A stretch of DNA of 64,000 nt. It comes from an uncultured delta proteobacterium. GTDB lineage: Bacteria > Desulfobacterota > Binatia > UBA9968. The notes beneath the pieces were generated by a model. The model was not told the origin of the DNA. It saw nothing but the letters and a program-made list of their open reading frames with translations, and ran no database searches. The stretch lies in contig CAVWLW010000030.1 in assembly GCA_963755715.1 (NCBI GenBank), forward strand, positions 45,585 through 109,584, written 5' to 3'. Every line of letters begins with the position of its first letter. The first letter of the stretch is position 1. Below are positions 24,801-63,929 of this stretch, piece by piece. The translations under genes and the position numbers were made by a program.

Positions 24801-25292
24801 ATCGCCGACGCGCCGGCCAAACTGCGCGAAGCTACGGACAAAGAACCGGCTGAGCACCGGCAAAGTCGCGCCCATCAGCATGGTCGGAAACACGAGCAGG
24901 ACGAAAGAAAGAAAAAACAGCACGAGATTGAAAAGAAACGGATAGCTCTCATTCAAACCGAAGATCGGCCCGTAGACCTTTTGTGCCATCTGAAAAATCC
25001 ACGGCACCAGGAAACCGTAGACGCCGACGCCCGCTTCGAGGATGCCATACAACAAAAAATCGTTCTTGCCGCGGTCAGCAATCTGGCCGAACAGATAACT
25101 GCCGATCGCCAAGCCGGCCATAAACGCGGACAACACGGTGGCAATGGCGTAAGTCGTATTGCCGAAGATTTGCGTCAGCATGCGGGTCCACACCACTTGG
25201 TAAATCAAACCCGCCGCGCCGGAAAAAAAGAAACAAAAGAGTCCGACGAGGAGCAGCCAATCTTGTTTGGAACGCGGAACACTATCCGTCAT
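21819..25292 (-). CDS. Fused membrane (MFS-like)/spermidine-synthase-like methyltransferase with C-terminal TPRs
   Basis: Duplicated TM block (SGAAGLIYQVVW / SGFASLVYENAW), GLGSG SAM motif, IEIEP, DGRNY, YDVITAEPSNPW, then TPR-like repeats. Confidence 0.88.
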   Translation of the reverse strand: MTDSVPRSKQDWLLLVGLFCFFFSGAAGLIYQVVWTRMLTQIFGNTTYAIATVLSAFMAGLAIGSYLFGQIADRGKNDFLLYGILEAGVGVYGFLVPWIFQMAQKVYGPIFGLNESYPFLFNLVLFFLSFVLLVFPTMLMGATLPVLSRFFVRSFAQFGRRVGDLYATNTLGAVIGCAAGGFFLIPTLGMRMTVFVAASVNLVIAAAILLIDRLRDKTPLEIVPPTAAEETAAAESQGSSRLAWVVLTSFALSGFASLVYENAWTRSLTLVIGSSIYSFSTMLVTFLIGLALGGFIYARVLGGREARLNTFGLIELWVGLSALATIPLFERLPLIFVRLLHGFGDTFTVFLYLQIFLSALVMFIPTVLLGMTFPLVARLFTQSVYRVGSGVGSSYAANTVGAVVGAFAGGFILIPNLGVQNTIIFAVVLNLLIGAWLVISDSKLSFVPRYALGLAVLVLAIIVPFKVHRWDPHVLTSGVTIYADRYESLPTDSLRVEEMKRDDVLFYREGLTTTVSVHSIPGSDYVYFKSNGKIDGSYGDALSQLMTSYIAMLLHPTAERALTIGLGSGMSAKALATFKSLKRIEIIEIEPAMIQASKFFDRTSVPLAKLPPGVSFPSSPTVRSRFVYDSVADSPDTRVWYDEKEKRIYYQGVMAPAARAELMKRSEDLDYRGAIDRLSRNARNSRHAGVLEDPRVHVIPTDGRNYILATPEQYDVITAEPSNPWIAGIANLYTREFYQVIKSKIKDDGIFAQWFHNYSMSPDDFRMVFRTFAEAFPHVSLWSMKESDFLLIGSKKEQVFDYAAVKKIYDDNKTLQSDLEYLGLSDVYAVQGFYRMNRDGFLAFSKGAAINTDDGAQLEFSAPKNLRRATTELNRRIMTPFLLDSPPWLKSKPLPVPEAMHHFYMAQSYLASLSRARASKEIDEAIRLEPKNPKFHLLKMRILLEQDKSTEGLKEALAALESGSEYISDVLAMSDEFYLPEAQVIYRKVISMGNKEVLPYLGLGNIALHSGDLAEAEKWFIQARDLQAEHPAVLLAWGRLAAAKAARLKDDGQAKKELQEARALLEKSKSKGEDSATIHTELGGVYYRLAVWEKAAAEYTEALRMRRRRNDLRFSLGQSYAQLGKIKDAEQKYREILSLSPDDADALKALQDLGAKY

Positions 25293-25640: not shown

Positions 25641-27212
25641 ATGGCAAACGCAAAACGAGACGGCGCTGCGCCGGAAGAAGTGAGAGATCTCAGGCGGGCA
25701 ATCGAGTGGATGAAGAAAGAAGGTGACATTATTATCACCGACAAAGAAGTCGACCCCAATCTCGAAATCACCGGCATCCAAAAACGGCTGGACGGCGGTT
25801 GCCCGATCCTTTTCAACAACGTTAAGGGCAAGCCTCAGCATCGTTGCATCACCAACCTCTTCGGCGACATGAACGTCATCAACAAGATGTTCGGCTGGAA
25901 GGATCACGCCGATCGGACCCGAAAACTTGCCTATGCGATCACTCACCCGATTGCGCCGATTGTGGTCGATCAAAAAGATGCGCCGGTACAGGAAGAAGTT
26001 TACGAAAAACCGGCTGAAGCCAACGACTACGTCGTGCCGATCCGCCACACCAACATCGAGCCGGAGTTGACCGTCGGCTCCGGCAACCGCTTAATCTCGG
26101 GCGAATATTTCAACGGCGGCACGGACCTCGGCTATAACCGCATGAATTTTCGCTGGGGCAACGTGGGGACATTCCAAATTTCTCCCGGCTCGCACATGTG
26201 GCAAGTCGTGAGCAAATATTACAAAGACAATAAGATGGTCCCGATCACGATGAATTTCGGTTTGCCGCCGGCCGGCTCGCTGCTCGCCGGCGCTGGCTTC
26301 GACTATGTTATCCTGCCGCAAGGTTGCGACGAAGTCGGTATGGCCGGAGCCGTGCAAGGCGCGCCGATGCGCTTGGTGAAAGCCCGCACCATCGATGCTT
26401 ACGCTTTAGCCGATGCCGAAGTCATTCTCGAAGGCTATGTAAATCCCCGCGACCGCCGTTTCGAGACCGCGGAGTCGGAAAAGGCCGGAATTCAAGGTCG
26501 CTTTCACTTCCATCCCGAATGGGCCGGCTATATGGGCAAAGCCTACAAAGCACCGACGTTTCATGTCACCGCCGTGACGACCCGTAAACGGGAAGGCAAG
26601 CCGATTATCTTTCCACTCGGCGTGCACACGCTCGACGATCACAACATCGATACGACGATCCGTGAAGCGGCGATGTTCGAGCTCTGCGAACGCATGCAGC
26701 CCGGCATCATCATGGACGTCAACATTCCTTACTGCATGACGGATTGGGGCGGAGCGATCATCCAGGTCAAGAAGCGCAATCGCATCGAAGAAGGGTGGCA
26801 GCGCAATTTCATGGCCGCGATCCTCGCGACTTCGCAGGGCTCGCGTTTGGTCATCGCCGTCAGCGAAGATTCCGACCCTTACGACATGGATGACATCATT
26901 TGGAATCTCACCACCCGCGTCAATCCAAAAACCGATATCATCAACCCGCTACCGGGCGGTCGCGGCCAAACTTTTATGCCGGCCGAGCGCATGACTGCCG
27001 GCGAAAAAGAGTGGACCGCATCGAATACCAGTTTCGAAGGCGGCATGGGCATCGACGCGACCGTGCCTTTCGGTTACGAGAGCGACTTCATGCGCCCGGT
27101 TTATCCGGTCGACAGAGTCGAACTTTCGAAATGGTTCAGTGAGAAAGATATTCAGAACGCCAAGAGTCGCATGCAAGGCTGGGTGCATTCGTTAGCGCGC
27201 ACCGGCCGTTAA
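25641..27212 (+). CDS. UbiD-family (de)carboxylase, divergent
   Basis: DLRRAIEW...EVDPNLEI, PILFNNVKG, AEVILEG, EWAGY, WNLTTRVNP, GIDATVP; GGAGG RBS. Confidence 0.85.
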   Translation: MANAKRDGAAPEEVRDLRRAIEWMKKEGDIIITDKEVDPNLEITGIQKRLDGGCPILFNNVKGKPQHRCITNLFGDMNVINKMFGWKDHADRTRKLAYAITHPIAPIVVDQKDAPVQEEVYEKPAEANDYVVPIRHTNIEPELTVGSGNRLISGEYFNGGTDLGYNRMNFRWGNVGTFQISPGSHMWQVVSKYYKDNKMVPITMNFGLPPAGSLLAGAGFDYVILPQGCDEVGMAGAVQGAPMRLVKARTIDAYALADAEVILEGYVNPRDRRFETAESEKAGIQGRFHFHPEWAGYMGKAYKAPTFHVTAVTTRKREGKPIIFPLGVHTLDDHNIDTTIREAAMFELCERMQPGIIMDVNIPYCMTDWGGAIIQVKKRNRIEEGWQRNFMAAILATSQGSRLVIAVSEDSDPYDMDDIIWNLTTRVNPKTDIINPLPGGRGQTFMPAERMTAGEKEWTASNTSFEGGMGIDATVPFGYESDFMRPVYPVDRVELSKWFSEKDIQNAKSRMQGWVHSLARTGR

Positions 27213-30783: not shown

Positions 30784-31518
30784 TTAAGCTAAATTTGTTT
30801 TGAAGAAGCTAACGGTTCTTCCCCATGCGTCCTTGGCCGCTTCGGGATTGTAGCGGTCTGCGTTGGTATTGTTGTTAAACGCATGTTTCGCGCCCGGATA
30901 AACTTTACAATCAAACTTTTTCCCCGCCTTCTGTAGCGCCGCCTTCAAAGGCTCCACGCCCGGCATGATGTTCGCGTCATCTTCGGCATAGTTCCCCATC
31001 ACCGAACAAGGAATGTTGGCGACGGAATCAAGTGGATCCGGGTTGCGGCCGTAGTAGACAACCGCAGCGTTCAGATCCTTGCTCTTGGTGGCGAAATTTA
31101 GCGACTGACCGCCGCCCCAGCAGTAGCCGACCACGCCGACTTTGCCGTTGACGTAGTTCTGCTTTTTCATATAAGCCACTGCTGACGCCAAATCCTCGGC
31201 CACCATGGTTCCGTTTACCTTCTGAATTTCTTTGGTGGCCTCATCACTGCCATTCCATTTGTCACTGCCACCGATCCGGCCCATGCAGTCCACCGCGATC
31301 GCCGCGAAGCCGTCTTTAGCGAAGTGCCGCGCCACGTCTTTGATATGACCCACGAGTCCCCGGTTTTCGTGAATCACGAGCACCGTACCCAGATTCGTCC
31401 CGCTCTTCGGCCGTGCTACATAAGCGTTGACGGTTCCGGCTTGACCGGGGAATGAGACCATTTCCGAGGTCAAACTGGAATCATTCGGATCGACGATATT
31501 TTCTATAGTCTGAGCCAT
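30784..31518 (-). CDS. Dienelactone hydrolase family protein
   Basis: IHENRGL, nucleophile GYCWGG, YPGAKHAFNN. Confidence 0.92.
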   Translation of the reverse strand: MAQTIENIVDPNDSSLTSEMVSFPGQAGTVNAYVARPKSGTNLGTVLVIHENRGLVGHIKDVARHFAKDGFAAIAVDCMGRIGGSDKWNGSDEATKEIQKVNGTMVAEDLASAVAYMKKQNYVNGKVGVVGYCWGGGQSLNFATKSKDLNAAVVYYGRNPDPLDSVANIPCSVMGNYAEDDANIMPGVEPLKAALQKAGKKFDCKVYPGAKHAFNNNTNADRYNPEAAKDAWGRTVSFFKTNLA

Positions 31519-31694: not shown

Positions 31695-32042
31695 TCACGC
31701 CGAGGTCGAGCTCGCGGCGGAAGATGACTTTTCACCGCTCGACGGAGTGCTCTCGCTTTTCTTACTCTCTGTCTTAGTTTCCGTCTTGGTTTCTTTGCTT
31801 TCTTTATTATTTGAATCCGCAGGCGACTTGGCGGTTTTATCGTCCTTGGCATCGCCGTTTTGGCCTTTACGCGCGTAGTCGGTGACGTACCAGCCGGTAC
31901 CTTTCAGTTGGAACGAAGTGTTCGAGATAAGCTTTTTGACTTTATTCTTACAAGTGGGACATTTGCTCAGCGACTTCTCGGTGATTCTTTGCGTGACCTC
32001 GAAGGTGCCGCATTTTTGGCATTGATACTCGTAGATAGGCAT
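31695..32042 (-). CDS. FmdB-family zinc-ribbon protein
   Basis: [12 protein letters not shown]...CPTC...[13 protein letters not shown] followed by a low-complexity tail. Confidence 0.92.
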
Positions 32043-32124: not shown

Positions 32125-32481
32125 TCACGCCCGCGCATTGCGGTCCGAGCCGTCTTCTTTGACATGCGGCCCGCCGAATCCTTCCGAGCGGTTGCCGAAC
32201 AGCACCAGCGGTTCCGTTCCGTTGTTGGTAATTTGATAATAGTCCTTGGCTTCCAAGAAAAGCACCTCATTTTTACGAATCGGCCGCTCCTCGCCTTTCA
32301 AACCTTTGACCACGCCGCTCCCGGACAAGACCAAAAAAGTTTCCGGATTGGCGTGGTAGTGCATATCCGTGCCGTCACCTGGAACGAAATAAAGCATCCA
32401 AGATCGGAAATTACCGGCACCGAATAAATGGATATTGCGTTTTTTTGTCGAAATCATTTCGTCGAGATTCTTTACGTCCAT
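32125..32481 (-). CDS. Cupin-domain protein
   Basis: PGDGTDMHYHANPETFLVLSGSG; the second cupin motif has Tyr where His is usual (KDYYQITN). Confidence 0.85.
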   Translation of the reverse strand: MDVKNLDEMISTKKRNIHLFGAGNFRSWMLYFVPGDGTDMHYHANPETFLVLSGSGVVKGLKGEERPIRKNEVLFLEAKDYYQITNNGTEPLVLFGNRSEGFGGPHVKEDGSDRNARA

Positions 32482-32624
32482 TGCGATCCTCCTTAGACTA
32501 ATTTTTTGATTCTAGCCTAGCTCTCTTGTTTTGAGCAAGCGTCGCGAATCGAGCTTGACAGCCAAATGGGGCTGCAATATTGGTGCTCGGTAAACCGTTT
32601 ATCTAAACGATGGAGGCGTTTCGC

Positions 32625-33368
32625 ATGCTAAAACTCAACGAGTCGCAAGCCGAAGAATTTATCGCCGATCTTGCCGCGAAATGCGACCGCCGCTGGAAGG
32701 AAACCGTCGATAAGACCCGTTTTATGGACGAGCTGCGCGAAGGCAAGCTAAAAAAAGCAACGCTGCAGCTTTTTTACAAGAACTGGGGCTCCTTTGTGCC
32801 GGTGATCAATTCGGTTTACACCTCGGCCTTTTATAAGCATCTCTGGTTTTTCGTTAAAAACGTCGACTTGATGGAGGTCTACACTCAAAAAGTTCTCGAC
32901 GAGTTCGGCCATCCTTGCCCGCCGGGGCATATTCAGATCCTGATGAGCACGGGCAAAGCCCTGGGTCTGAGTAAAGAGGAAGTGCTCCTTTCACCGATGC
33001 TGCCGGAGTGCCGGGCGCTGCCCGACTTTCATCGCACTCTGATCAACGACGGGCAGATTCAGGAGTATTGGTTTTCGGTTCTTTGGGAGCATCCCTTCGG
33101 CAATTCTTGTCTGGATTTTTTCAAAGCCCTCACCACGCATTACGGTCTCAGCACGGCCGACGCGAGTTATTTTTCCAAACATCACGAAGCCGACACCATG
33201 GATCATCTGGATCGAAAATCACACGGCGCGGTGACGCAGACGGTTTTGGTCCGGCTGCTGCAGGAAGGCATCAGCGAGCGGCCGGGCTATTCGGCGGAAT
33301 ACTGCGCCGTCACGCCGGCGGATTTGAACAAGATGTTCATGGACGGCTGCTATAAGGCAACGCATTAG
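32625..33368 (+). CDS. Heme-oxygenase-like diiron oxidase (PqqC/CADD/TenA superfamily), paralog A
   Basis: TRFMDELREGKL; DEFGHPCPPGH, LWEHP, YFSKHHEADTMDH..SHG ligand-like motifs; GGAGG RBS before ATG 32625. Confidence 0.78.
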   Translation: MLKLNESQAEEFIADLAAKCDRRWKETVDKTRFMDELREGKLKKATLQLFYKNWGSFVPVINSVYTSAFYKHLWFFVKNVDLMEVYTQKVLDEFGHPCPPGHIQILMSTGKALGLSKEEVLLSPMLPECRALPDFHRTLINDGQIQEYWFSVLWEHPFGNSCLDFFKALTTHYGLSTADASYFSKHHEADTMDHLDRKSHGAVTQTVLVRLLQEGISERPGYSAEYCAVTPADLNKMFMDGCYKATH

Positions 33369-33373
33369 TCGAA

Positions 33374-34456
33374 ATGCCGCGAAGCGAGAACAAAATGTCG
33401 TTGGCAGAGCTCAATCAGAAACTCAAAGAGCAAAATCTCATCGGCTACTGGACGATTCCCAATACCAGCACCGGCTTTCGCGAGCCGGAGCCGACCTTCC
33501 GGCCCTTCCTTTGGAAATGGAAGGAGATTCGCGCGGCGCTCGATCAAGCCGCGCAGCTTATCCGTCCCGAAGAAGCGTTCCGCCGATTTATCGGTTACCA
33601 GCACCCTGAATTGAAATTGGGCACGGCGCACACTCTGCTCATGGGTGCGCAAATGGTCCGGCCCGGCGAGTTTGCGCCGGCGCACCGTCACACCATGGGC
33701 GCGATCCGCTTCGTCGTCGAGGGCCACGGCGCGACAACCATCGTCGAAGGCGAGCCCTTGCCGATGGAGCCGGGCGATTTGATCACGACACCGAGTTGGA
33801 ATTGGCACGACCACGTCAATAGCGGCGACACACCGATCATCTGGCTTGACGGCGCCGACGGACCGATGCTGCACTATTATCAAGCCGGTTTTGCCAACCC
33901 GTTTCACGAGCGCCAACAGACCGTGAGCAAGCCTGAAGATTGGTCAAAAAAAACCTACGGCGCCTTGCGTCCGCAGTCCACGCCGCAACCGACGTCGAGT
34001 CTTTACCGCCCGCCCTATCGCTACGCCTGGAAAGACACGGAAGAGATTTTTGCAGCGATGGCTGAAGCGCCCGGCGATCCCTACGACGGAGTTTTGCTGC
34101 ACTATGCGGACCCGCTCAGCGGCGGGTCGACTTTGCCGACGATGAATTGCCAAGTGCAAATGTTTCGCCCCGGTGAGAAAGGCCGCTCGCATCGTCACAC
34201 ACACTCGGTCGTGTACCATGCTTTTCGCGGCTCGGGCACGACTTGGGTCGGCAATGAGAAATTCGACTGGCAGCAAGGCGATTCCTTTGTCGTGCCGCTC
34301 TGGAGCTGGCACGCCCATGAAAATAATTCGGGTGAGCCGGCGATATTATTTTCCATCAATGACCGGCCGGCGATCGAAGCGTTGGGGTTTTTCAGAGAAG
34401 AAACGAGGGAGAAAGTCTTACGTCAGCATCTCCAGTGTCAAACGGGTGTCACCTGA
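33374..34456 (+). CDS. Bicupin, gentisate 1,2-dioxygenase family
   Basis: PFLWKW, PAHRHTMGAIRFVVEG, WNWHDH, WLDGADGP; second domain SHRHT..., WSWHAH, DRPAIEALG. Confidence 0.88.
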   Translation: MPRSENKMSLAELNQKLKEQNLIGYWTIPNTSTGFREPEPTFRPFLWKWKEIRAALDQAAQLIRPEEAFRRFIGYQHPELKLGTAHTLLMGAQMVRPGEFAPAHRHTMGAIRFVVEGHGATTIVEGEPLPMEPGDLITTPSWNWHDHVNSGDTPIIWLDGADGPMLHYYQAGFANPFHERQQTVSKPEDWSKKTYGALRPQSTPQPTSSLYRPPYRYAWKDTEEIFAAMAEAPGDPYDGVLLHYADPLSGGSTLPTMNCQVQMFRPGEKGRSHRHTHSVVYHAFRGSGTTWVGNEKFDWQQGDSFVVPLWSWHAHENNSGEPAILFSINDRPAIEALGFFREETREKVLRQHLQCQTGVT

Positions 34457-34544
34457 GCGAATGCGAAGGGTCGCGTTCGTCGAATTCTCCTACCGTCAGA
34501 CACCAGAACTTTAGACTGCGATTCGAGTTTTTAGACAAGTGAAC

Positions 34545-35966
34545 ATGGCCTTCACTGACCTAAGAAACTTCATCGACGGCGCCGCGCGCATCGGCGAGCT
34601 GAAAGTCATCGACGGGGCGCACTGGAACCTCGAAATCGGCTGTCTGACGGAATTGATGGCCGAGCAAGAAGGACCGCTGCTGCTCTTCGACAAGATCGTC
34701 GATTATCCCGCGGGTTTTCGTATCGCGACCAACGCGTTGGCGACACCGCGGCGCTTCGCCCTGGCTCTCGGCCTACCCACCGATGTGCCGAAGCTGGAGA
34801 TTCTCAAAGCCTGGCGCAACAAGATTCGCGATCTCAAGCCTTTCGCCCCCGTCGAAGTTTCATCCGGCCCGATAAGCGAGAATGTTCTTGAAGGTGATCG
34901 CATCGACTTGGATATTTTTCCCACGCCCAAATGGCACGAGCACGACGGCGGGCGCTATATCGGCACCGGCGACATGGTGATTATCAAAGATCCGGATAGC
35001 GGCTGGATCAACGTCGGTACCTACCGCTCCTGCGTCGTTGCCAAGGATCGCGTTACGCTCTGGATCATCGAGCACAAGCACGGCAAACAGATCGCGCGCC
35101 GATATTGGAACGCGGGACGCCCCTGTCCCGTCGCCATCGTGCTCGGTTGCGAGCCCGCTACCTGGCTGGCTGCGCCGTCCGCCGCCAAATCCGGTGTGAG
35201 TGAATATGAATATGCCGGCGCGTTGCGCGGCGCGCCGCTCGAAGTGATCCGAGCGCCATTCACCGGACTGCCGATCCCCGCAACAGCTGAAATTGTCATC
35301 GAAGGCGAAATGCCCTCGCCCGAAGAAGAGTCGCACGCGGAAGGGCCCTTCGGCGAATGGCCGGGATATTACACTCATAGCGGCGATGAATGTGTCGTCC
35401 GCGTCAAGCGGATTCTCTATCGCAATGATCCGATCCTGCTCGGCAATCCGCCGCTTTTGCCGATCACCGAGCGCTATGGCATTCCGCTCTACGCCGCGCG
35501 CATCTGGGACCACTTGGAGCAATCCGGCATCTCGGACGTCCAAGGCGTTTGGTGCCATTGCCATACTTTGATGGTGGTCGTCTCTCTGAAGCAACGGCAC
35601 GCCGGGCAGGCATTGCAAGCGCTCACTGCGATCGCCGGCATGCAAACCGGCGCGAGCATGTATCGCTACTATATCGCCGTCGACGACGACATCGATCCGG
35701 TGGACCTGAAACAAGTCATCTGGGCCATGTGCACGCGCGTCGATCCGGCGGAGTCGGTGCAGATTCTTAAATCCTGGACCACCGATCTCGACCCGCGCTT
35801 GCCGCCGGACAAGCGCGACAAGGGCGATTTTACTATGAGCCGCATGTTGATCGACGCCTGCAAACCGTTTCATTGGCGCGAGCATTTCGCCGTCGCCAAT
35901 AAGTTCAGCGCCGAGAAGCGCGAGGAGATCTGGGAAAAGTGGGCGCCGAAACTTTTACTCAAATGA
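34545..35966 (+). CDS. UbiD-family prFMN-dependent (de)carboxylase
   Basis: DGGRYIGT, NVGTYR, AEIVIEG, EGPFGEWPGYY, VDDDIDP, WAMCTRVDP, LIDACKP. Confidence 0.92.
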   Translation: MAFTDLRNFIDGAARIGELKVIDGAHWNLEIGCLTELMAEQEGPLLLFDKIVDYPAGFRIATNALATPRRFALALGLPTDVPKLEILKAWRNKIRDLKPFAPVEVSSGPISENVLEGDRIDLDIFPTPKWHEHDGGRYIGTGDMVIIKDPDSGWINVGTYRSCVVAKDRVTLWIIEHKHGKQIARRYWNAGRPCPVAIVLGCEPATWLAAPSAAKSGVSEYEYAGALRGAPLEVIRAPFTGLPIPATAEIVIEGEMPSPEEESHAEGPFGEWPGYYTHSGDECVVRVKRILYRNDPILLGNPPLLPITERYGIPLYAARIWDHLEQSGISDVQGVWCHCHTLMVVVSLKQRHAGQALQALTAIAGMQTGASMYRYYIAVDDDIDPVDLKQVIWAMCTRVDPAESVQILKSWTTDLDPRLPPDKRDKGDFTMSRMLIDACKPFHWREHFAVANKFSAEKREEIWEKWAPKLLLK

Positions 35967-36026
35967 AGTTGTCGGGTTGACGTTTCAGCGCACATAAACT
36001 AAGGACTGAAACAAGGAGGACACATC

Positions 36027-36938
36027 ATGGACAAAGTAAACTTTCCCTATCGTTCGGACAGCCATCTGCCGTTTCTTCACGTCGTTCACGACTCGGGTTC
36101 CTGGGCGAAGCACGGCCTTGACGTGAATTACGACTACGAGATTACTTCGGAGGATTCGCACAAGAACGTCGCCAACGGCACGGTCGAATTCGTCGGCGGC
36201 AATCATCTTTCGCCTTACATTCGCCGTTCGATGGGCGACAAATGGGTTTACCTCGGCCAATCCGTGAGTTTGTTGAATCATCGGCTGGTCGTGCGCGCCG
36301 ACTCGGGCATCAACAAAGTTTCCGATCTCAAAGGCAAAAAAGTTGCGACCAAGGGCAAGCACCCCGGTTTGAATACTTGGCTCTTCATCAAGCAGGCCGG
36401 GTTGATCCACGAGTGCGAGGTGGAGAAAGCCAAGGGCAGTAAGTTTCACTGGGAAGCGGTGCGCGACGGCGAAGCTGATGCGGCGTTCGTCACGCCGCCG
36501 GCGGATATTCTGTCGAAACGCGCCGGCTTGAAAGTCATCGAGGTGCCGTTCTTGCCGATGGTGTGGTTCACCACGGTTTCGAGCGGGTTGCCCTTCGTCG
36601 AGAAACACCCGGATATAATCGACAAGATGCTCCGCGGCATTTGCGAGGGCATCGCCTATTTCAAAACGCACCGCGCCGAGTCGATCAAAATCATCAAAGA
36701 AAAATACAAGGCCGAAGGCGATCTCGACGACGAGACGGCGAGCCATCTGTACGACGACCTAAAGAAAGTCCTGCAGGCGAAGCCGTACGCGACGATTCCG
36801 GCGATCAGCAATGTCTACGAGATTTCAATCGTGCAGGACAAGGCCGCCGAAAAGACCGATCCGATGGCGCTGTGGGATTTTCACTATCTCAGACGCATCG
36901 ACGACAGCGGCTTTATCGATAATCTATATCGGACTTAA
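36027..36938 (+). CDS. NMT1/SsuA-like substrate-binding-fold protein without signal peptide
   Basis: KHGLDV, DLKGKKVA, VRDGEADAA, IDDSGFIDNLY; strong AGGAGG RBS, and the N-terminus MDKVNFPY has no hydrophobic leader. Confidence 0.8.
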   Translation: MDKVNFPYRSDSHLPFLHVVHDSGSWAKHGLDVNYDYEITSEDSHKNVANGTVEFVGGNHLSPYIRRSMGDKWVYLGQSVSLLNHRLVVRADSGINKVSDLKGKKVATKGKHPGLNTWLFIKQAGLIHECEVEKAKGSKFHWEAVRDGEADAAFVTPPADILSKRAGLKVIEVPFLPMVWFTTVSSGLPFVEKHPDIIDKMLRGICEGIAYFKTHRAESIKIIKEKYKAEGDLDDETASHLYDDLKKVLQAKPYATIPAISNVYEISIVQDKAAEKTDPMALWDFHYLRRIDDSGFIDNLYRT

Positions 36939-36948
36939 GACCTTCATG

Positions 36949-37017
36949 CTTCGACAAGGCTCAGCACGAACGGAGGATTCGGGTTCTTTTTTTCCGTTCG
37001 CCCTGAGCTTGTCGAAG
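36949..37017. repeat. REP-like inverted repeat pair
   Basis: CTTCGACAAGGCTCAGCACGAACGGA ... TCCGTTCGCCCTGAGCTTGTCGAAG, imperfect inverted arms in an intra-operon spacer. Confidence 0.75.
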
Positions 37018-37058
37018 GGCTCCGCTTTTCTTGTACTCAATCAACGGAGCAACAGCCG

Positions 37059-37832
37059 ATGACTGGCGTTACTCCTCAGCTCGGCGTCAAGATGAGCTCC
37101 AATGACGCCAGAGCGTACATCGACGAAGTCAACAAGAAAGTCATTCAGCGCTGGAACGAGCGAGTGACGCAAGGTCCCTTCATGAGGAAATTACTAGAAG
37201 GCACCTTGCCGATGTCGGCGATTAAGCTGTTCTTCAAAAATTGGGGCAACTTCACCGTCGAGATCAATACTCTGATATCCGTCTCGTATCATAAACATAT
37301 CGGCTTTTTTAAACGTCATCCCGACCTCATGGCACCGCTCGGCGTCAAGATTGCCGACGAGTTCATTCATCCCAAGCCGCCCGGTCATGTGCTCGTGATG
37401 CTTCAGACCGCCGAAGCGCTGGGGCTCACGAAAGATCAGGTGCTGCGCGAACCGATGCTGCCGGAGTGCCGCGCCATACTCGATTTCAAACGGCAGCTCA
37501 TGTGGGAAGGAACCGTCGCCGAATGGTGGTTTTCCATGCTGACGGAAGAGCCCATCGGTCACTGGTCGGCCATGTGGTTCAAAACCTTGACGCAGAAATA
37601 CGGTTTCAGTAAGGAGCAGGCCGTTTACTTCTCCACCCACGAGGAAGCCGACCTGAAAGAACACGAAGACGGCGTCATGGGTCATGGTAGTTTCAACAAA
37701 CTAGTCATGCAGCGCATCCTCGAAGACGGTTACGCCGATACGCGCGAAGGTTACAATCTCGAATACTGCGCCACTGCCGCCGTCGATCTCTACGGCGTCA
37801 TGCACCGCGCGGCGGCGGAGCTGGCGGAATGA
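37059..37832 (+). CDS. Heme-oxygenase-like diiron oxidase, paralog B
   Basis: PFMRKLLEGTL; DEFIHPKPPGH, LTEEP, YFSTHEEADLKEH...GHG; shares KNWG and PMLPECRA with paralog A. Confidence 0.78.
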   Translation: MTGVTPQLGVKMSSNDARAYIDEVNKKVIQRWNERVTQGPFMRKLLEGTLPMSAIKLFFKNWGNFTVEINTLISVSYHKHIGFFKRHPDLMAPLGVKIADEFIHPKPPGHVLVMLQTAEALGLTKDQVLREPMLPECRAILDFKRQLMWEGTVAEWWFSMLTEEPIGHWSAMWFKTLTQKYGFSKEQAVYFSTHEEADLKEHEDGVMGHGSFNKLVMQRILEDGYADTREGYNLEYCATAAVDLYGVMHRAAAELAE

Positions 37833-37853
37833 TCAACCCAAGAGAAATTTTCC

Positions 37854-38857
37854 ATGACAGCTTTGAGAATTTTCATTATCCGCCGTGTTCTTGCTTTTTC
37901 TCATCGGCGACTGCCCAGGCGCAAACGACCTCACTCGTCCTCGGCTACAGCGGCTCGGGCATCAGCACGGATCTGCGCCGCGTCATGGATCTGGAAAAAA
38001 TCTGGGAGAAGCACGGCCTCATCATCAAATCGGTCTACTTCAATAGCGGCAGCGTTCTCACCCAAGCGATGATCGGCGGGAACATAGCGCTGTCGGATTC
38101 CGGCGTGCCTGAAATGCTTGTCCTGCCGGTCTCCGGCGCATTCGAGACCAAAGTCATTACTGTCAATATCAATCGTCTCGAACATATTTTCGTCACGCGC
38201 AAAAACGTCGCAAAGCCCGAAGACCTGAAGGGCAAGCGCATCGCCGTGAGCCGTTTCGGCTCGGCGTCGGATCTCACGACGCGAATGGTGCTACGATCAT
38301 GGAAGCTCGACCCGGAAAAAGACGTTGCCTTGTTGCAATCCGGCAACACGCCGACCCGCATGACCGCGCTGATCGCCGGCCACGTCGACGGCGCGCTGGT
38401 GAGTCCCGAGAGTCTGCACAAGGTTTTGGCCAGCGGCTGCTGCCGATCTTTGGCCGATCTCTCCGAGCTGCCCCTCGACTTTGCCCGTTTCGGCGTGACC
38501 GTGCCGGCTTCGTTGATTCGCAACCAGCGCGACGTCGCGCGCCGCATCGTCATGGCCTACGTCGAAGGAATTCATGCATTTAAAACAAAACCCAAACTCG
38601 TTTACTCCGTGCTCGAAGAAGAAGGCATCAAGGATCCAGCCGTCGCTAAAGAAATTTATGCTCGGTTGAGTTTCAGCATGCGCGAATATCCGATTCCCGA
38701 AGCGAGCGGAATACAAAATGCCCTCGATTCGCTCGGTCACCCGAACGCGCGCAACGTGAAACCGGCCGGTGTGATCGACACGAGCCTGATCGAGGAAGTG
38801 CGGAAATCCGGCTTTATCGACAAACTCTACGGGCGAGCGCCGATGAATCAAAAATAA
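37854..38857 (+). CDS. ABC transporter substrate-binding protein (NMT1/SsuA-like); signal peptide region appears frameshifted
   Basis: Mature part from AQA-QTTS: DLKGKRIAVSRFGSASD, ALIAGHVDG, KSGFIDKLY; hydrophobic leader MTALRIFII is in another frame. Confidence 0.8.
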
Positions 38858-39341: not shown

Positions 39342-39683
39342 TTAGACCTTCTCGTCTTCCGCCAAAATGTCCGTTATCAGATCCCGAATCAGCTGCCGCT
39401 TCGGCAGCGGTTCGACAGTGATCAATTCCGGCGTTACCTTGGCGATGCAGGTATATTCCACCGCGCCGTTCACCAGCGCCATGCAGGTTTTGCAGGCGTT
39501 AGCGTTGATGCAGCTGTAGCGAATCCCCAGCGTGCTATCGAGATGAATGCGAATCCAGCGCAGCGCGTCGAGCACCGACATGCCTTCTTCGTAGGGAACG
39601 TCGAAGACATCGTAACGGCCCGCTTCGCCGACCGACCCGCGCCGGACGCGAAGACGGGTGGTTTTGCCGATTGGATCAGCCAT
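39342..39683 (-). CDS. 2Fe-2S protein, SdhB/FrdB N-terminal domain only
   Basis: GMSVLDAL, RYSCINANACKTCMALVNG...TC, VEPL...IRDL; ends before the 4Fe-4S/3Fe-4S domain. Confidence 0.85.
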   Translation of the reverse strand: MADPIGKTTRLRVRRGSVGEAGRYDVFDVPYEEGMSVLDALRWIRIHLDSTLGIRYSCINANACKTCMALVNGAVEYTCIAKVTPELITVEPLPKRQLIRDLITDILAEDEKV

Positions 39684-41383
39684 GACTCGATTCGCTGCGA
39701 TTGAGTCGGACGAGAGCGGCCCAGCGCGTCGACAGGTTGCCGTCTTTCAGCTCCAGCACCTGATTCTTGAGCAATCGCGCATCCGCGATCGGAAAATCTT
39801 CGCGCTGATGTGCGCCGCGGCTCTCGGTTCGCGCCAAGGCGGAACGGACGACCGCTTCCGCCGTCGTCAGCATCGCGCGTAATTCGAACCAATCTTGCAG
39901 ATCGAGATTGAAGTCACGTTCTCGGTTAATGCGCAGACGAAGCAGGTCCGTCTTGCTCATCTCTTCGATGCGCGCGAGCGCCTCCGTCAGCTTCTCGCCG
40001 GTGCGAAACGGCCCGGCTTGCTCCCACATCAGCTTCTGCAGCTCAATTTGCAGCGTGATCGGAGCGGCGCCGTCCGAGCGGGAATTTTCGTAGACAAATC
40101 CTAAGCGCTCGATTGTTTTCTGAGCGAGTTTCTCGTCCCAAGCAGCTGGCGCGCGCTGCGCCGCTTCAGCGGCGCTGGAGCCGGCGCGCGCGCCGAATAC
40201 GAACGCTTCAGTGATCGCGTTGCCGGACAGTCGATTGGCCCCGTTAGAGCCGCCGACCGCTTCGCCGGCGGCATAAAGCCCTTCGATTCGCGTCCGCATG
40301 TTCGTGTCGACGCGAATCCCGCCCATGTGATAGTGCGCCATCGGGCCGACTTCCACGGGCATTTGCGTGAGATCGATGCCGTTGACGAGCAGGCGATCGA
40401 TCACCGGACCGAAAGCGGCGCGCAGTTGCGTTTCAGGAATGTGGCGGAAGTCGAGATAAGCGCCGCCGTGCGGCGTGCCGCGCCCGGCTTCGACTTCTTT
40501 TAAGATCGCGTAGGCCGCGATGTCGCGGGTGGCGTTGTAATGGCCGAAATCCGTGCTGCCGTAGCGGTCGATGAATTCTTCGAATTGTCCGTTGAGCAGT
40601 TTACCGCCGAGCTTGTAGCGAAACGGATCCCATAGGATCGGATCCATGCCGACCAGGCGCGGCGCAAGATGGCCGATCGGAAAAAATTGCACGAACTCCA
40701 TATCGATCAGCTCCGCGCCGGCCGACAATGCCAACGCGTACGCTTCGCCGCCCATGTTGGCCGACGCGCTGTTGCGCTCGTAGAGTTTCGTGAGACCGCC
40801 GGCGGCGAGAATCACCGCTCGTGCTTGAATCGTGACCCATTCGCCGCCGGCGAGACTGAGAGCGACGGCGCCGATCGCCCGCCCGTCGCGCGCCAATATT
40901 TCGAGCCCGGCGAGATTGCTGATGCGCCGAATGTTTGTCGACTCGCTCACTTTGCGCCTGAGCGTCGCTGCCACGGCTGGACCGGTGTTGAGAAAGTCGA
41001 CGTAGCAACAGCGTTTGACGCTGTGCCCGGGCGCCATTTCTTGCTTGATGCGGCCGTCTTCCCGCGCCCAGCGCGTGCCCCACTGCTCCATCTCGACGAT
41101 GCGCTTCGGCCCGTCGCTGCAAACCAACCGCGGCAAGCTCTTCGTTGCACAGGCCGCGGCCTGCCCTCAAGGTATCTTCCAGATGCAGCTCGACCGAGTC
41201 CGGTTCCGCCGCGCCGAGCGCTACGGCGACGGTCATCTGCGCCATGATCGTCGCGCCGCCGCGGCCAACTTGGCCTTTGTCGACGAGAAGCACCGAGGCG
41301 CCATCGCGTGCCGCGGCGATCGCCGCGTACATACCGGCGCCACCAGCACCGACTATCAGTACATCTGTCGAGAGTTGGGGCAT
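39676..41383 (-). CDS. SdhA/FrdA/NadB-family FAD oxidoreductase (frameshift near 41130)
   Basis: DVLIVGAGGAG in ORF 40601-41383; LAAGG, DMEFVQFFP, HYHMGGI, YAAGE, GANRLSGN, RTESRGAHQREDFP in ORF 39676-41136. Confidence 0.88.
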
Positions 41384-54459: not shown

Positions 54460-54501
54460 GACATCAAGGAGTTCCCGGTCCACGAGATGATCACCGCCTA
54501 G
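54460..54501 (+). other. 3' remnant of an unrelated gene (…DIKEFPVHEMITA*) marking the start of the high-GC segment
   Basis: GAC ATC AAG GAG TTC CCG GTC CAC GAG ATG ATC ACC GCC TAG: every third position is G/C. Confidence 0.55.
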
Positions 54502-54583
54502 CACCGCAAAGAGTAGTCGACAGGGCATCGAGCACCGCGGTGTCCTGTCGACGAGCGGCCGGCCGTGAACGACGTACCTAGGC

Positions 54584-55599: not shown

Positions 55600-55679
55600 C
55601 TCGACCCCAACATCTCCGGCGGCGGCATGGTCAACCCCTTTCCCAACCGAGGTACGTGATCCCGCAAACGTATGCCGCG

Positions 55680-56637: not shown

Positions 56638-56670
56638 CGCGACCCCCTTGCAGGCCGATCCTAGCTTCAC

Positions 56671-56735
56671 TCGTGTGGACTCCACACAAAGGGTGTGAGG
56701 CGCTCCGAAACGCGCTTTGTGTTGAGTCCACACGA
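56671..56735. repeat. 21-bp inverted repeat pair (REPIN/MITE-like hairpin)
   Basis: TCGTGTGGACTCCACACAAAG ... CTTTGTGTTGAGTCCACACGA, one mismatch. Confidence 0.7.
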
Positions 56736-56786
56736 AGTCTGCGCGCGCGAGGAGATCACGGCCCGCCGTTCGCGGCCCGGCTACCG

Positions 56787-57254: not shown

Positions 57255-57343
57255 GCAAACAGCATCCTCCTCGAACCGCCTCGATGCAAGCGGCCGCCGG
57301 GGAACACTCCCGAACGAGTGCGCGGCCCTATAGTCGCTCCACG

Positions 57344-57695: not shown

Positions 57696-57697
57696 CG

Positions 57698-58092: not shown

Positions 58093-58251
58093 GCGTCGGA
58101 ACCTAGCGCGGGTCGCGCGTCGGTTTGGTTGGCCGTTGGAGAACGATCGGTATCAACCTGGTGTCAGCGAAAACGCAGCCGCACGCCACGACGCTTCCGC
58201 TCGTCTCTGCAAAACTCGGGGCACCGATCAGCACGCAACGAGGGGGTTCCG

Positions 58252-59445: not shown

Positions 59446-59447
59446 CC

Positions 59448-60336: not shown

Positions 60337-60338
60337 CC

Positions 60339-63919: not shown

Positions 63920-63929
63920 CGAGGGCCGC

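What the first reader, a model, noticed from the sequence alone, without database searches (positions are those of the whole stretch)
32125..38857. Uncharacterised operon: paired heme-oxygenase-like diiron oxidases, ring-cleavage bicupin, UbiD decarboxylase and two binding-protein folds
Seen: six co-oriented, closely spaced genes (HDO-A, gentisate-dioxygenase-like bicupin, UbiD, signal-less SBP-fold protein, HDO-B, SBP) plus a divergent small cupin. Known: HDOs (CADD, UndA, BesC, SznF) perform O2-dependent diiron chemistry mostly in biosynthesis; UbiD enzymes reversibly decarboxylate aromatic or unsaturated acids; gentisate-family cupins cleave aromatic rings. I do not recognise a described pathway combining them. 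Inference: an aromatic or heteroaromatic acid degradation (or tailoring) route in which HDOs replace Rieske or flavin hydroxylases. This is the best candidate for a new system in the window.
Basis: partly seen in the sequence, partly recalled or inferred. Interest (0 to 1): 0.8.

Follow-up and report, generated by a model that had tools for sequence, protein, structure and literature searches.

The report
Aromatic-acid operon with paired diiron oxygenases
A soil bacterium of the uncultured Binatia group carries a conserved operon that most likely breaks down an aromatic or nitrogen-ring carboxylic acid, and it uses two oxygen-activating enzymes of a type so far known only from biosynthesis.

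Summary

New findings:
- The UbiD is about 60% identical to PhdA, the phenazine-1-carboxylate decarboxylase of Mycobacterium fortuitum (PDB 7PDA, 598 bits).
- Both HDO-like proteins keep the 3-His/3-carboxylate metal site. HDO-A was modelled and folds like CADD. They are not TenA, PqqC or CADD-type pABA synthases.
- The bicupin keeps the iron triad of gentisate/salicylate dioxygenases.
- The neighbourhood is conserved. Of 23 Binatia-type loci long enough to judge, 21 have the UbiD, 18 the cytoplasmic NMT1-fold protein, 16 HDO-B and 10 the bicupin. Alphaproteobacterial MAGs also pair HDO-A with UbiD paralogues.
- Seven related loci carry a TctA carboxylate transporter gene.
- No paper was found that combines HDOs with UbiD or with aromatic catabolism.

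Best reading: a catabolic operon for an aromatic or N-heteroaromatic carboxylate. The substrate and the HDO reaction are inferred, not shown. This copy lacks UbiX, lacks a second UbiD, and its exported binding protein has lost its signal peptide. I rate it a new variant of a known kind, interest about 0.6.

The parts
32125..32481 (-). Small single-domain cupin (118 aa), divergently transcribed. Function unknown.
   Evidence: Cupin_2 42.1 bits. The sequence contains an HYH...E motif. The best PDB sequence matches are weak generic cupins of up to 29 bits. It is present next to HDO-A in 20 of 23 Binatia-type loci with at least 5 kb downstream.
32625..33368 (+). [quoted passage not shown] The ORF is open from 32610.
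   Evidence: PF14518 27.1 bits. E98, H107, E160, H191, D195 and H199 are invariant. The AF2 model has pLDDT 92.2. The best Foldseek match is CADD 8vag/1rcw, TM 0.73-0.86, E 1e-7.
33374..34456 (+). Bicupin Fe(II) ring-cleaving dioxygenase of the gentisate/salicylate 1,2-dioxygenase family. Substrate unknown. It is an optional member of the cluster.
   Evidence: NCBIfam MabB 311.5 bits (cut-off 650) and gentisate 276.8 bits (cut-off 442). PDB 3bu7 247 bits and 2d40 241 bits. The HxH...H, R and Q residues align with those of 2phd/3bu7. It is present in 10 of 23 judged loci.
34539..35966 (+). UbiD-family (prFMN-dependent) decarboxylase. Its closest characterised relative is PhdA, the phenazine-1-carboxylate decarboxylase.
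   Evidence: Three UbiD Pfam domains are present and TIGR00148 scores 283 against a cut-off of 245. PDB 7pda_A scores 598 bits, E 1.3e-178, and the next best match scores 189 bits. 7PDA is M. fortuitum PhdA. The EGPFGE motif is kept.
36027..36938 (+). Cytoplasmic NMT1/THI5-fold (class II periplasmic-binding-protein fold) protein. Its role is unknown: accessory binder or enzyme.
   Evidence: NMT1 44.1 bits. It has no signal peptide, and 83 columns are invariant across 19 orthologues, including many His, Asp and Arg residues. The AF2 model has pLDDT 85. Foldseek matches are 3qsl, ThiY, Thi5, SsuA, DszB and PqqT, TM 0.62-0.70. There is no PDB sequence hit.
37059..37832 (+). HDO-B: paralogue of HDO-A (40% identity) with the same ligand set.
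   Evidence: PF14518 32.7 bits, above the cut-off. The ligands are invariant in A1 and A5. The HDO-B-type rows form a group with 94/83 support in the tree.
37829..38857 (+). NMT1/SsuA-type solute-binding protein. Its N-terminus is degenerate here, with no signal peptide.
   Evidence: NMT1_2 35.2 bits and SsuA_fam 52.9 bits. All 10 orthologues have an MKK...AQA signal peptide and the window protein does not. DNA between 37826 and 37920 has no counterpart for about 1.6 kb that is present in four relatives.
30784..31518 (-). Dienelactone-hydrolase-family protein. It is a conserved neighbour and possibly part of the pathway.
   Evidence: DLH 162.8 bits and YghX-family 187.5 bits, below the cut-off. 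It is present in 18 of 23 judged Binatia-type loci. A DLH paralogue sits directly after HDO-B-type genes in 8 of 18 HDO-B-anchored loci.
31695..32042 (-). FmdB-type zinc-ribbon protein. It is a conserved neighbour of unknown role.
   Evidence: Zn_ribbon_8 57.4 bits and TIGR02605 70.5 bits. It is present in 19 of 23 judged loci.

Best explanation
This is a chromosomal catabolic operon, native to a lineage of Candidatus Binatia, for an aromatic or N-heteroaromatic carboxylic acid.

Shown by sequence and structure comparison:
- a PhdA-type UbiD decarboxylase with its catalytic motif;
- two CADD-like HDO proteins with a complete 3His/3carboxylate dimetal site;
- a gentisate/salicylate-type bicupin with an intact iron site;
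- a cytoplasmic NMT1/THI5-fold protein;
- an NMT1-type binding protein.

Inferred mechanism:
1. The acid is taken up. In sister genomes this is by a Tct (TTT) transporter encoded inside the operon.
2. The UbiD removes a ring carboxylate non-oxidatively. It uses prFMN made by a UbiX encoded elsewhere.
3. The two HDOs use O2 and a dimetal centre to oxygenate, most likely hydroxylate, the ring system at two different steps or positions.
4. Where the bicupin is present, an ortho-hydroxy-carboxylate intermediate is opened by Fe(II)-dependent 1,2-dioxygenolytic cleavage.
5. The neighbouring dienelactone hydrolase and alpha/beta hydrolase may process the product.

The cytoplasmic NMT1-fold protein is tied to the HDOs by gene order. 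It is either a substrate-holding partner or an enzyme in its own right.

The leading single candidate substrate is phenazine-1-carboxylate or a similar polycyclic or heterocyclic acid. The substrate is not established.
For: Organism and native status
- L001, a Candidatus Binatia MAG, is 100% identical over HDO-A.
- GC of the operon (0.53-0.58) equals that of its flanks.

UbiD
- PDB 7pda_A scores 598 bits, against 189 bits for the next characterised UbiD.
- 7PDA is PhdA.
- 63 of 102 residues are identical in the block 103-204, counted by hand.

HDOs
- The ligand columns are invariant in 15 sequences and invariant or at least 90% conserved in 42.
- The fold is closest to CADD, followed by PqqC, BesC, FlcD, HrmI and UndA.

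Bicupin
- The iron triad aligns with solved gentisate and salicylate dioxygenases.

Synteny
- Binatia-type loci with at least 5 kb downstream (n = 23): UbiD at 60% identity or more in 21, NMT1-fold protein in 18, HDO-B in 16, bicupin in 10.
- Alphaproteobacteria-type loci (n = 12): a UbiD-family gene in 12, two or more UbiDs in 9, NMT1-fold protein in 10, bicupin in 5.

Carboxylate uptake
- TctA occurs in 7 of 80 loci. In 6 of them TctC-TctA-TctB lies directly downstream of the NMT1-fold gene.
- TctC-like genes occur in 22 of 80 loci.
- TTT systems carry phthalate isomers (PMC13040137, passages).

Catabolic company in paralogous loci
- FAA hydrolase, DHDPS-type aldolase, LigB, Rieske alpha/beta, Amidohydro_2 and IclR.
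Against: - No reaction has been tested. The HDO role is inferred from context alone.
- The roughly dozen HDOs validated so far act mainly on fatty acids or amino acids, in biosynthesis (PMC13108848, section 4).
- No UbiX lies in the 64-kb window or in any of the 80 loci.
- The Pfam scans of the window's larger ORFs returned no reductase, regulator or membrane transporter between 28.8 and 39.3 kb.
- No maleylpyruvate isomerase or FAA hydrolase follows the bicupin here.
- The bicupin is absent from 13 of 23 judged loci, so ring cleavage by it is not a core step.
- If the UbiD removes the only carboxylate, as PhdA does, the product could not be a salicylate-type substrate for the bicupin. The order of steps is therefore unclear.
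- This copy has lost the second UbiD and the binding protein's signal peptide, so it may be partly decayed.
- About 60% identity to PhdA does not fix the substrate. P0230, which is 61% identical to the window UbiD, scores 586 bits against PhdA, about the same as the window protein's 598.
Confidence: 0.55

Rival explanations
1. Specific version: the operon degrades phenazine-1-carboxylic acid (PCA) or related phenazines. The UbiD acts like PhdA. The HDOs hydroxylate PCA or phenazine, for example to 2-hydroxy-PCA, a salicylate-like acid that a gentisate-family dioxygenase could open.
For: PhdA is by far the closest characterised UbiD, at 598 bits against 189. The mycobacterial pathway also starts with this decarboxylation and then needs ring oxygenation, done there by Rieske-type and extradiol-type dioxygenases (PMC4626857, section 8). 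Known phdA-carrying degraders are rare in soils although producers are common, and that survey discarded reads under 80% identity. Binatia genes at about 60% would therefore have been missed (PMC7591250, passages). These MAGs are labelled as soil or groundwater organisms.
Against: Identity is only about 60%. Streptomyces plasmids carry 55%-identical UbiD+UbiX pairs next to NRPS genes, so this subfamily is not tied to phenazine catabolism. No HDO is listed among the phenazine-induced genes of Table 1 of PMC4626857; its supplementary Table S1 was not read. The alphaproteobacterial clusters pair HDO-A with UbiDs that are only 31-47% identical to this one.
Confidence: 0.22
2. The substrate is a benzene or pyridine di- or polycarboxylate, or a hydroxylated one such as a hydroxy-phthalate isomer from lignin or humic matter. 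Several decarboxylases strip carboxyl groups and the HDOs add hydroxyls. The product is a gentisate- or salicylate-like acid for the bicupin.
For: Related loci hold 2-5 UbiD paralogues plus an Amidohydro_2 decarboxylase-type gene. TTT transporters and many TctC-like receptors are present, and TTT systems import phthalate isomers. A dicarboxylate would leave a carboxylate for the salicylate-type bicupin after one decarboxylation. In L074 the bicupin, an HDO and an FAA hydrolase are adjacent, as in a gentisate pathway.
Against: No characterised UbiD for such substrates is close to this one. Known aerobic phthalate routes use Rieske dioxygenases, and the UbiD step is known from anaerobes acting on CoA esters. 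No CoA ligase lies in the window.
Confidence: 0.15
3. The cluster is biosynthetic, making a cofactor or natural product, as for all HDOs characterised so far.
For: Validated HDOs serve biosynthesis. CADD and Thi5, the nearest solved relatives of two of the proteins, are both biosynthetic and self-sacrificing enzymes. UbiD enzymes occur in quinone and antibiotic biosynthesis (NCBIfam names).
Against: There are no core biosynthetic genes in the window or in the annotated relatives. A ring-cleaving dioxygenase, dienelactone hydrolase, FAA hydrolase and carboxylate importers are catabolic signatures. Lys152, the proposed amino-group donor of CADD, is Phe in HDO-A and Trp in HDO-B, and this position is not conserved.
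Confidence: 0.1
4. The HDOs do not act on the pathway substrate. They service the UbiD enzymes instead, for example by O2-dependent oxidative maturation or repair of prFMN.
For: HDO-A is linked to UbiD-family genes across two phyla, in 22 of 23 and 12 of 12 judged loci. No UbiX lies nearby.
Against: HDO-B-type genes often occur without any UbiD. A UbiD is present in only 4 of 18 HDO-B-anchored loci, and the partners there are DLH, the bicupin or NMT1-type genes. To my knowledge UbiD enzymes mature prFMN without a helper (recalled, not from a call).
Confidence: 0.05
5. The cluster salvages thiamine pyrimidine (TenA thiaminase II plus a ThiY-type binding protein) or is PQQ-related (PqqC-like plus a PqqT-like binder), as the automatic names suggest.
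For: JGI names the homologues 'PQQ biosynthesis protein C'. HDO-B scores 24.1 bits on the TENA_THI-4 model, above the cut-off of 22. ThiY, Thi5 and PqqT are among the structural matches of the NMT1-fold protein, and PqqC is the second-best fold match of HDO-A.
Against: The full dimetal ligand set is invariant. TenA and PqqC are metal-free (for PqqC, the review abstract; for TenA, recalled). HDO-A is below the TenA cut-off, at 19.1 against 22. No other thi or pqq gene appeared among the window ORFs scanned. The UbiD, bicupin and DLH have no place in either route. The structural matches of the NMT1-fold protein are equally good for SsuA and DszB.
Confidence: 0.04

Closest known systems
PhdA/PhdB, the phenazine-1-carboxylic acid decarboxylase system of Mycobacterium fortuitum (PDB 7PDA)
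   Same: The window UbiD aligns end to end with PhdA at 598 bits, about 60% identity, and keeps the EGPFGE catalytic motif. Both sit in oxygen-dependent catabolic contexts.
   Different: No UbiX (PhdB) lies adjacent. The mycobacterial locus continues with Rieske-type and extradiol-type dioxygenases. Here the partners are two HDOs, a gentisate-type bicupin and NMT1-fold proteins. The substrate has not been tested.
CADD (CT610) and NePabS, self-sacrificing p-aminobenzoate synthases that are founding members of the HDO family
   Same: CADD is the best structural match, TM 0.73-0.86. It is also the best PDB sequence match of both HDOs, at E about 0.01. The 3His/3carboxylate ligand pattern is shared.
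   Different: Identity is only 15-16%. CADD Lys152 is replaced by Phe in HDO-A and Trp in HDO-B, and the position is not conserved. The last His ligand sits one residue later than in CADD. The genomic context is catabolic. The subfamily is small and separate: 171 representatives at E up to 1e-10 among 1.84 billion.
Gentisate, salicylate and 5-aminosalicylate 1,2-dioxygenases (bicupins; PDB 3BU7, 2D40, 2PHD; NCBIfam MabB)
   Same: The two-cupin architecture, the HxH...H iron triad and the neighbouring Arg and Gln residues align.
   Different: Scores are below both equivalog cut-offs, 277 against 442 and 311 against 650. No maleylpyruvate isomerase or hydrolase lies in the window. The gene is optional in the cluster, present in 10 of 23 judged loci.
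NMT1/THI5-fold proteins: ThiY, Thi5, SsuA/TauA, DszB desulfinase and PqqT
   Same: The class II binding-protein fold is shared, TM 0.62-0.70, and there is a Pfam NMT1 match.
   Different: The protein is cytoplasmic. It has no PDB sequence match at E up to 0.01. It is very strongly conserved, with many invariant His, Asp and Arg residues. It is never seen next to ABC permease genes in the loci annotated. Whether it is a binder or an enzyme (as Thi5 and DszB are) is open.
Phenylphosphate carboxylase (PpcABCD), a multi-subunit UbiD-type enzyme
   Same: The best NCBIfam name for the UbiD is 'phenylphosphate carboxylase subunit beta', and several UbiD paralogues cluster in the related loci.
   Different: The score of 302.7 is below the cut-off of 469. 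There are no alpha, gamma or delta (phosphatase) partners in the window. O2-dependent enzymes surround it.

Membership tests
[quoted passage not shown] | Seven-helix heme-oxygenase-like bundle | tested here: met
   The AF2 model of HDO-A has pLDDT 92.2 and is all-helical. Foldseek matches are CADD at TM 0.73-0.86, then PqqC, BesC, FlcD, HrmI and UndA. HDO-B was not modelled; it is 40% identical to HDO-A.
[quoted passage not shown] | 3His/3carboxylate primary ligand motif on core helices (as described in PMC13108848, section 4) | tested here: met
   E98, H107, E160, H191, D195 and H199 (HDO-A numbering) are invariant in 15 sequences that include both paralogues. They are invariant or at least 90% conserved in 42 sequences. 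In the phmmer alignments they lie on the CADD motifs, with the last His one residue later. The CADD ligand residue numbers are recalled, not taken from a call.
[quoted passage not shown] | Binds Fe/Fe or Mn/Fe and activates O2 | not testable with these tools
   This needs metal analysis, spectroscopy and O2 consumption measurements on purified protein.
HDO (Pfam PF14518, Haem_oxygenas_2) | Score at or above the gathering cut-off of 28.9 bits | tested here: inconclusive
   HDO-A scores 27.1 bits, below the cut-off. HDO-B scores 32.7 bits, above it.
CADD-type self-sacrificing pABA synthase | Lys152, the proposed amino-group donor (with sacrificial Tyr27) | tested here: not met
   CADD K152 (peptide K152IRGLTE) aligns with Phe170 of HDO-A and a Trp of HDO-B. 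The column is not conserved. Tyr27 lies just outside the aligned stretch, so it was not judged.
TenA thiaminase II | Pfam TENA_THI-4 score above the cut-off of 22 bits, and a metal-free active site | tested here: inconclusive
   HDO-A scores 19.1 bits (below) and HDO-B 24.1 bits (above). Both keep a full dimetal ligand set. The TenA catalytic cysteine was not mapped.
UbiD family (prFMN-dependent decarboxylase) | Three UbiD domains and a family model score above its cut-off | tested here: met
   UbiD_N 47.8, UbiD 209.1 and UbiD_C 90.0 bits. TIGR00148 scores 283.3 against a cut-off of 244.85.
UbiD family (prFMN-dependent decarboxylase) | Catalytic E-x4-E motif (the role of the motif is recalled) | tested here: met
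   'EGPFGE' aligns with the same letters in PhdA.
PhdA (phenazine-1-carboxylate decarboxylase) | Decarboxylates PCA, with a UbiX partner (PhdB) encoded alongside | tested here: not met
   The UbiX partner is absent from the window and from all 80 loci. Activity on PCA is not testable here. Sequence similarity is high, at 598 bits and about 60% identity.
Gentisate 1,2-dioxygenase family | Bicupin with an HxH...H Fe(II) site in the N-terminal cupin | tested here: met
   There are two Cupin_2 stretches. 'aHrH...wHdH' aligns with 'EHRH...FHGH' of 2phd and the equivalents in 3bu7 and 2d40.
Gentisate 1,2-dioxygenase / 5-aminosalicylate 1,2-dioxygenase (NCBIfam equivalogs) | Score at or above the equivalog cut-off | tested here: not met
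   TIGR02272 scores 276.8 against 442.1. NF049978 scores 311.5 against 650.
NMT1/SsuA-type transport binding protein | Exported (signal peptide) and encoded with ABC permease and ATPase genes | tested here: not met
   The protein at 36027-36938 starts MDKVNFPYRS, with no signal peptide in any of 19 orthologues. The protein at 37829-38857 lacks the signal peptide its orthologues have. No ABC permease or ATPase appeared among the window ORFs scanned or in the annotated loci.
Phenylphosphate carboxylase | Score above the equivalog cut-off, with alpha/beta/gamma/delta subunits | tested here: not met
   phenyl_P_beta scores 302.7 against 468.95 and phenyl_P_alpha 169.6 against 564.6. There are no partner subunits in the window.

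The most novel reading that the evidence does not exclude
Uncultured soil Binatia, and by a related cluster some Alphaproteobacteria, degrade phenazine-type or similar N-heteroaromatic carboxylic acids by a route in which CADD-like HDO dimetal enzymes hydroxylate aromatic rings. This would be the first catabolic role for an HDO and the first aromatic-ring oxygenation by one. A cytoplasmic binding-protein-fold partner would work with them. It would also identify a missing group of phenazine consumers in soil that read-mapping at 80% identity to mycobacterial phdA could not detect.
Probability: 0.15. Interest if true: 0.85.

Novelty: new variant of a known kind. Interest (0 to 1): 0.62.

Why it matters
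Only about a dozen HDO enzymes have been validated, mostly on fatty acids or amino acids in biosynthesis (PMC13108848). A conserved, two-phylum linkage of a distinct HDO subfamily to UbiD decarboxylases, ring-cleaving dioxygenases and carboxylate importers points to an unexplored catabolic use of this O2-activating scaffold.

It gives a concrete, clonable six-gene test case. It could also assign a carbon-cycling trait to Binatia, a widespread uncultured soil lineage. If the substrate is phenazine-1-carboxylate, it bears on how long antibiotic phenazines persist in rhizospheres.

The cytoplasmic NMT1-fold protein is a second unknown worth solving. It is very strongly conserved and has no solved relative detectable by sequence.

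Tried and rejected
1. Complex prediction of HDO-B with the cytoplasmic NMT1-fold protein gave no verdict, score 0.00. It says nothing either way.
2. A search for longer, fused forms of HDO-A through the word index found none. The exhaustive profile search later found about 500-aa tandem HDO-HDO proteins, but no fusion to UbiD-sized or NMT1-sized partners was examined.
3. A plasmid search with HDO-A found no match. With the NMT1-fold protein it found only distant 'ABC transporter substrate-binding protein' matches at 21-35% identity. My recollection that 4,5-dihydroxyphthalate decarboxylase has this fold therefore found no support here, and two paper searches did not settle it.
4. Promoter and terminator scans found no more sites than shuffled sequence.
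5. ESM Atlas look-ups returned only the proteins' own Binatota-rich clusters.
The source names of the 59-70% identical UbiD homologues stayed unknown.
7. The dip (dipicolinate) cluster was considered and dropped. That paper does not mention UbiD.
8. NCBIfam gave no names for the unannotated proteins of the related loci.
9. The original PhdA paper (PMC5915785) is not held.
Synteny counts therefore rest on the best 80 of 357 matches in GTDB species representatives.

Full report
**What is in the window**

- A divergent 118-aa cupin lies at 32125-32481 (-).
- Six genes follow on the + strand: HDO-A (32610/32625-33368), a bicupin (33374-34456), a UbiD (34539-35966), a 303-aa NMT1/THI5-fold protein (36027-36938), HDO-B (37059-37832) and an NMT1-type binding protein (37829-38857).
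- The gaps between them are 5, 82, 60, 120 and -4 bp, which fits one transcription unit.
- A consensus promoter/terminator scan gave no more sites than shuffled sequence, so it adds nothing.
- GC content of the operon equals that of its flanks. The surrounding genes are housekeeping (TamB, BamA-like, ProC, RNase III, MiaB-like, MnmA, PdxJ and others).
- The organism is a Candidatus Binatia MAG. L001 is 100% identical over HDO-A, 97% over the bicupin and 98% over the UbiD.

**The UbiD**

A sequence search of the PDB gives one outstanding hit. 7pda_A scores 598 bits (E 1.3e-178) and aligns over residues 4-472. The next characterised UbiD, HudA/PA0254, scores 189 bits.

A JBC 2024 paper (PMC10850782, passages read) identifies 7PDA as PhdA, the phenazine-1-carboxylic acid decarboxylase of Mycobacterium fortuitum. 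Counting by hand in the printed alignment, 63 of 102 residues are identical in the block 103-204, so identity is about 60%. The EGPFGE motif is kept.

PhdA starts PCA degradation in mycobacteria. I know this only through citations in PMC7591250, because the original paper is not held. That locus continues with Rieske-type and extradiol-type dioxygenases (PMC4626857, section 8 and Table 1; supplementary Table S1 not read).

Three things caution against fixing the substrate.
- P0230, a homologue 61% identical to the window UbiD, scores 586 bits against 7PDA, about the same as the window protein. PhdA and the window enzyme are therefore members of one subfamily rather than demonstrated orthologues.
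- Streptomyces plasmids carry 55%-identical UbiD+UbiX pairs beside NRPS genes.
- No UbiX is found in the window or in any of the 80 related loci.

**The two HDO-like proteins**

They are 40% identical to each other. Pfam PF14518 scores are marginal: 27.1 and 32.7 bits against a cut-off of 28.9.

In an alignment of 15 sequences spanning both paralogues, E98, H107, E160, H191, D195 and H199 are invariant. In 42 sequences they are invariant or at least 90% conserved. This is the 3His/3carboxylate pattern that a 2026 review gives as the usual HDO ligand set (PMC13108848, section 4).

The AF2 model of HDO-A is confident, with pLDDT 92.2. Its best structural matches are CADD (8vag and 1rcw; TM 0.73-0.86, E about 1e-7), then PqqC, BesC, FlcD, HrmI and UndA.

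They are not CADD-type pABA synthases. Lys152, CADD's proposed amino-group donor (preprint 10.1101/2022.08.01.502304, passages), aligns with Phe in HDO-A and Trp in HDO-B, and the column is not conserved.

The subfamily is small and well separated. A profile search of 1.84 billion representatives found 383 proteins at E up to 0.001, 171 at E up to 1e-10 and 59 at E up to 1e-30. In genome contigs, 357 stretches encode a relative.

**The bicupin**

It matches solved gentisate dioxygenases (3bu7 at 247 bits, 2d40 at 241 bits) and the salicylate/gentisate dioxygenase 2phd (162 bits). The HxH...H iron ligands and the neighbouring Arg and Gln align. The roles of the Arg and Gln residues are recalled, not taken from a call.

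It falls below both NCBIfam equivalog cut-offs. It is therefore a gentisate-family ring-cleaving dioxygenase with an unassigned substrate. That substrate most likely carries a hydroxyl group ortho to a carboxylate.

**The NMT1-fold proteins**

The 303-aa protein has no signal peptide. It is strikingly conserved, with 83 invariant columns in 19 orthologues down to 53% identity, many of them His, Asp or Arg. It has no PDB relative by sequence.

Its model (pLDDT 85) matches class II binding-protein folds. These include transport receptors (ThiY, SsuA, TauA, PqqT) and also enzymes (Thi5, DszB). Whether it binds or catalyses is open.

The last gene is an SsuA/TauA-like receptor. In this genome it lacks the signal peptide that all 10 aligned orthologues have. 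DNA comparison with four relatives (L016, L018, L020, L027) shows that the window lacks about 1.6 kb between HDO-B and this gene. In those relatives that stretch encodes a second UbiD (about 41% identical to the first) and the signal-peptide region.

**Conservation of the neighbourhood**

I ran tblastn with the window's proteins against the 80 loci kept from 357 matches.

| Locus group | Total loci | Loci judged | Feature within 8 kb of the anchor |
|---|---|---|---|
| Binatia-type HDO-A (at least 65% identity) | 42 | 23 (at least 5 kb downstream) | UbiD at 60% or more: 21; NMT1-fold gene: 18; HDO-B: 16; small cupin: 20; DLH: 18; bicupin: 10 |
| Alphaproteobacteria-type HDO-A (50-65% identity) | 19 | 12 (at least 5 kb downstream) | UbiD-family gene: 12; two or more UbiDs: 9; NMT1-fold gene: 10; bicupin: 5 |
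| HDO-B-type anchor | 19 (one, L061, has no HDO-B hit of sufficient coverage) | 18 | DLH paralogue: 8; NMT1-type gene: 9; UbiD: 4; bicupin: 2 |

The core association is therefore HDO with UbiD and an NMT1-fold protein. The bicupin and DLH are recurrent but optional modules.

Pfam and NCBIfam annotation of nine relatives adds catabolic company: Amidohydro_2, Rieske ferredoxin, IclR, glyoxalase-Rieske fusions, LigB, Rieske alpha/beta, FAA hydrolase, DHDPS-type aldolase, isochorismatase and an arylmalonate-decarboxylase-like protein.

Carboxylate uptake genes are also present. In six Binatia loci TctC-TctA-TctB lies directly downstream of the NMT1-fold gene. TctA occurs in 7 of 80 loci and TctC-like receptors in 22 of 80. 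There are none in the window. TTT systems are known importers of phthalate isomers (PMC13040137, passages).

**Interpretation**

The parts and their company fit a catabolic route for an aromatic or N-heteroaromatic carboxylic acid. The proposed steps are uptake of the acid, prFMN-dependent decarboxylation, O2-dependent oxygenation by the two HDOs and, where present, gentisate-type ring opening and hydrolase steps.

- Shown: family, fold, ligand conservation and synteny.
- Inferred: every reaction, the order of steps and the substrate.

The leading single substrate candidate is PCA or a similar polycyclic or heterocyclic acid, because of PhdA. A polycarboxylated benzene or pyridine acid is the main alternative. 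That reading rests on the several UbiD paralogues, the TTT transporters, and the fact that such a substrate leaves a carboxylate for the bicupin.

Several points weigh against the model.
- There is no UbiX, reductase, regulator or downstream maleylpyruvate enzyme in the operon.
- The bicupin is absent in 13 of 23 judged loci.
- This copy has lost genes and a signal peptide.
- All validated HDOs are biosynthetic.

**Comparison with the literature**

- A search for 'heme oxygenase-like', 'UbiD' and 'gentisate' (at least two terms) listed 8 papers. None of them holds the HDO term.
- 'Binatia' plus 'UbiD' gave 0 papers.
- In the 2026 HDO review the words 'aromatic' and 'degradation' do not occur, and 'catabol' occurs once, for heme.
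- A search on PCA degradation clusters listed nothing with this gene set.
- These searches cover open-access papers and bioRxiv only.

I therefore rate it a new variant of a known kind: an aromatic-acid catabolic cluster that uses an unprecedented class of oxygenase and an unexplained cytoplasmic binding-protein-fold partner.

**What stayed unchecked**

- The closed collections metagenome contigs and viral contigs.
- The 277 of 357 genome matches that were not kept.
- Source names of the homologous proteins (unavailable).
- Supplementary tables of PMC4626857 and PMC7591250.
- The surroundings of phdA in mycobacteria.

Noticed in passing
window 37826-37920 (junction of HDO-B and the SBP gene): Relative to L016, L018, L020 and L027, the window lacks about 1.6 kb. 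In those loci the stretch encodes a second UbiD (about 41% identical to the first) and the signal-peptide part of the binding protein. The window protein starts with about 25 residues that have no counterpart in orthologues. This may be a real deletion or an assembly artefact.
   Followed up: partly
window 54500-64000: GC rises from about 0.53-0.62 to 0.66-0.70. The genes here look fragmentary or odd: a 125-aa phosphotriesterase-family piece (60339-60716, -) and an aldehyde dehydrogenase ORF with an RNase H/RVT_3-like C-terminus (61708-63423, +). This could be a foreign island or a chimeric join in the assembly.
   Followed up: partly
window 25641-27212 (+): A divergent 523-aa UbiD-family protein (Pfam UbiD 95 bits) lies about 7 kb upstream of the operon. 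tblastn with the operon's UbiD finds a 21-24%-identical UbiD-family gene at the corresponding upstream position in 20 of the Binatia-type loci. Its role and any link to the operon are unknown.
   Followed up: no
L003, L004, L006, L010, L022, L030 (e.g. L010:14595-17640): A complete TctC-TctA-TctB tripartite tricarboxylate transporter lies directly downstream of the NMT1-fold gene in six sister loci; in four of them (L003, L006, L010, L022) HDO-B follows it. L040 has a fused TctA-TctB after HDO-A and the bicupin. The window has none.
   Followed up: yes
proteins P0238, P0242, P0246, P0261, P0325: Five representatives of about 483-519 aa hold two HDO domains in tandem. In three of them the N-terminal domain keeps all six ligand residues; in P0246 and P0325 the last His column is read as Glu or Asn. 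The C-terminal domain has lost most of the ligands in all five. This suggests that the subfamily works as a dimer, with a catalytic and a degenerate half in the fused forms.
   Followed up: partly
L061:2570-3258: The HDO-A gene of this otherwise syntenic Binatia-type locus matches at 95% identity, but only in pieces. No tblastn hit reaches 50% coverage. The likely cause is a frameshift or a sequencing error.
   Followed up: no
L042, L046, L048, L052, L057, L063 (Alphaproteobacteria MAGs): These clusters hold four or five UbiD paralogues around one HDO-A. In L042, the one locus annotated by Pfam, they come with an Amidohydro_2 protein, a small Rieske ferredoxin, an IclR regulator and several TctC-like receptors. 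This is an unusually decarboxylase-rich locus and deserves study of its own.
   Followed up: partly
window 39342-41136 (-): Convergent with the operon lies a pair of genes for a 2Fe-2S (Fer2_3) protein and an SdhA/FrdA-like flavoprotein. The flavoprotein's match starts at profile position 82 of FAD_binding_2, so its N-terminus looks short or the start is miscalled. No membrane anchor genes were seen. Any link to the operon is unknown.
   Followed up: no
window 21819-25292 (-): A 1157-aa ORF combines an MFS-like N-terminus, a spermidine-synthase-like domain and C-terminal TPR repeats.
   Followed up: no
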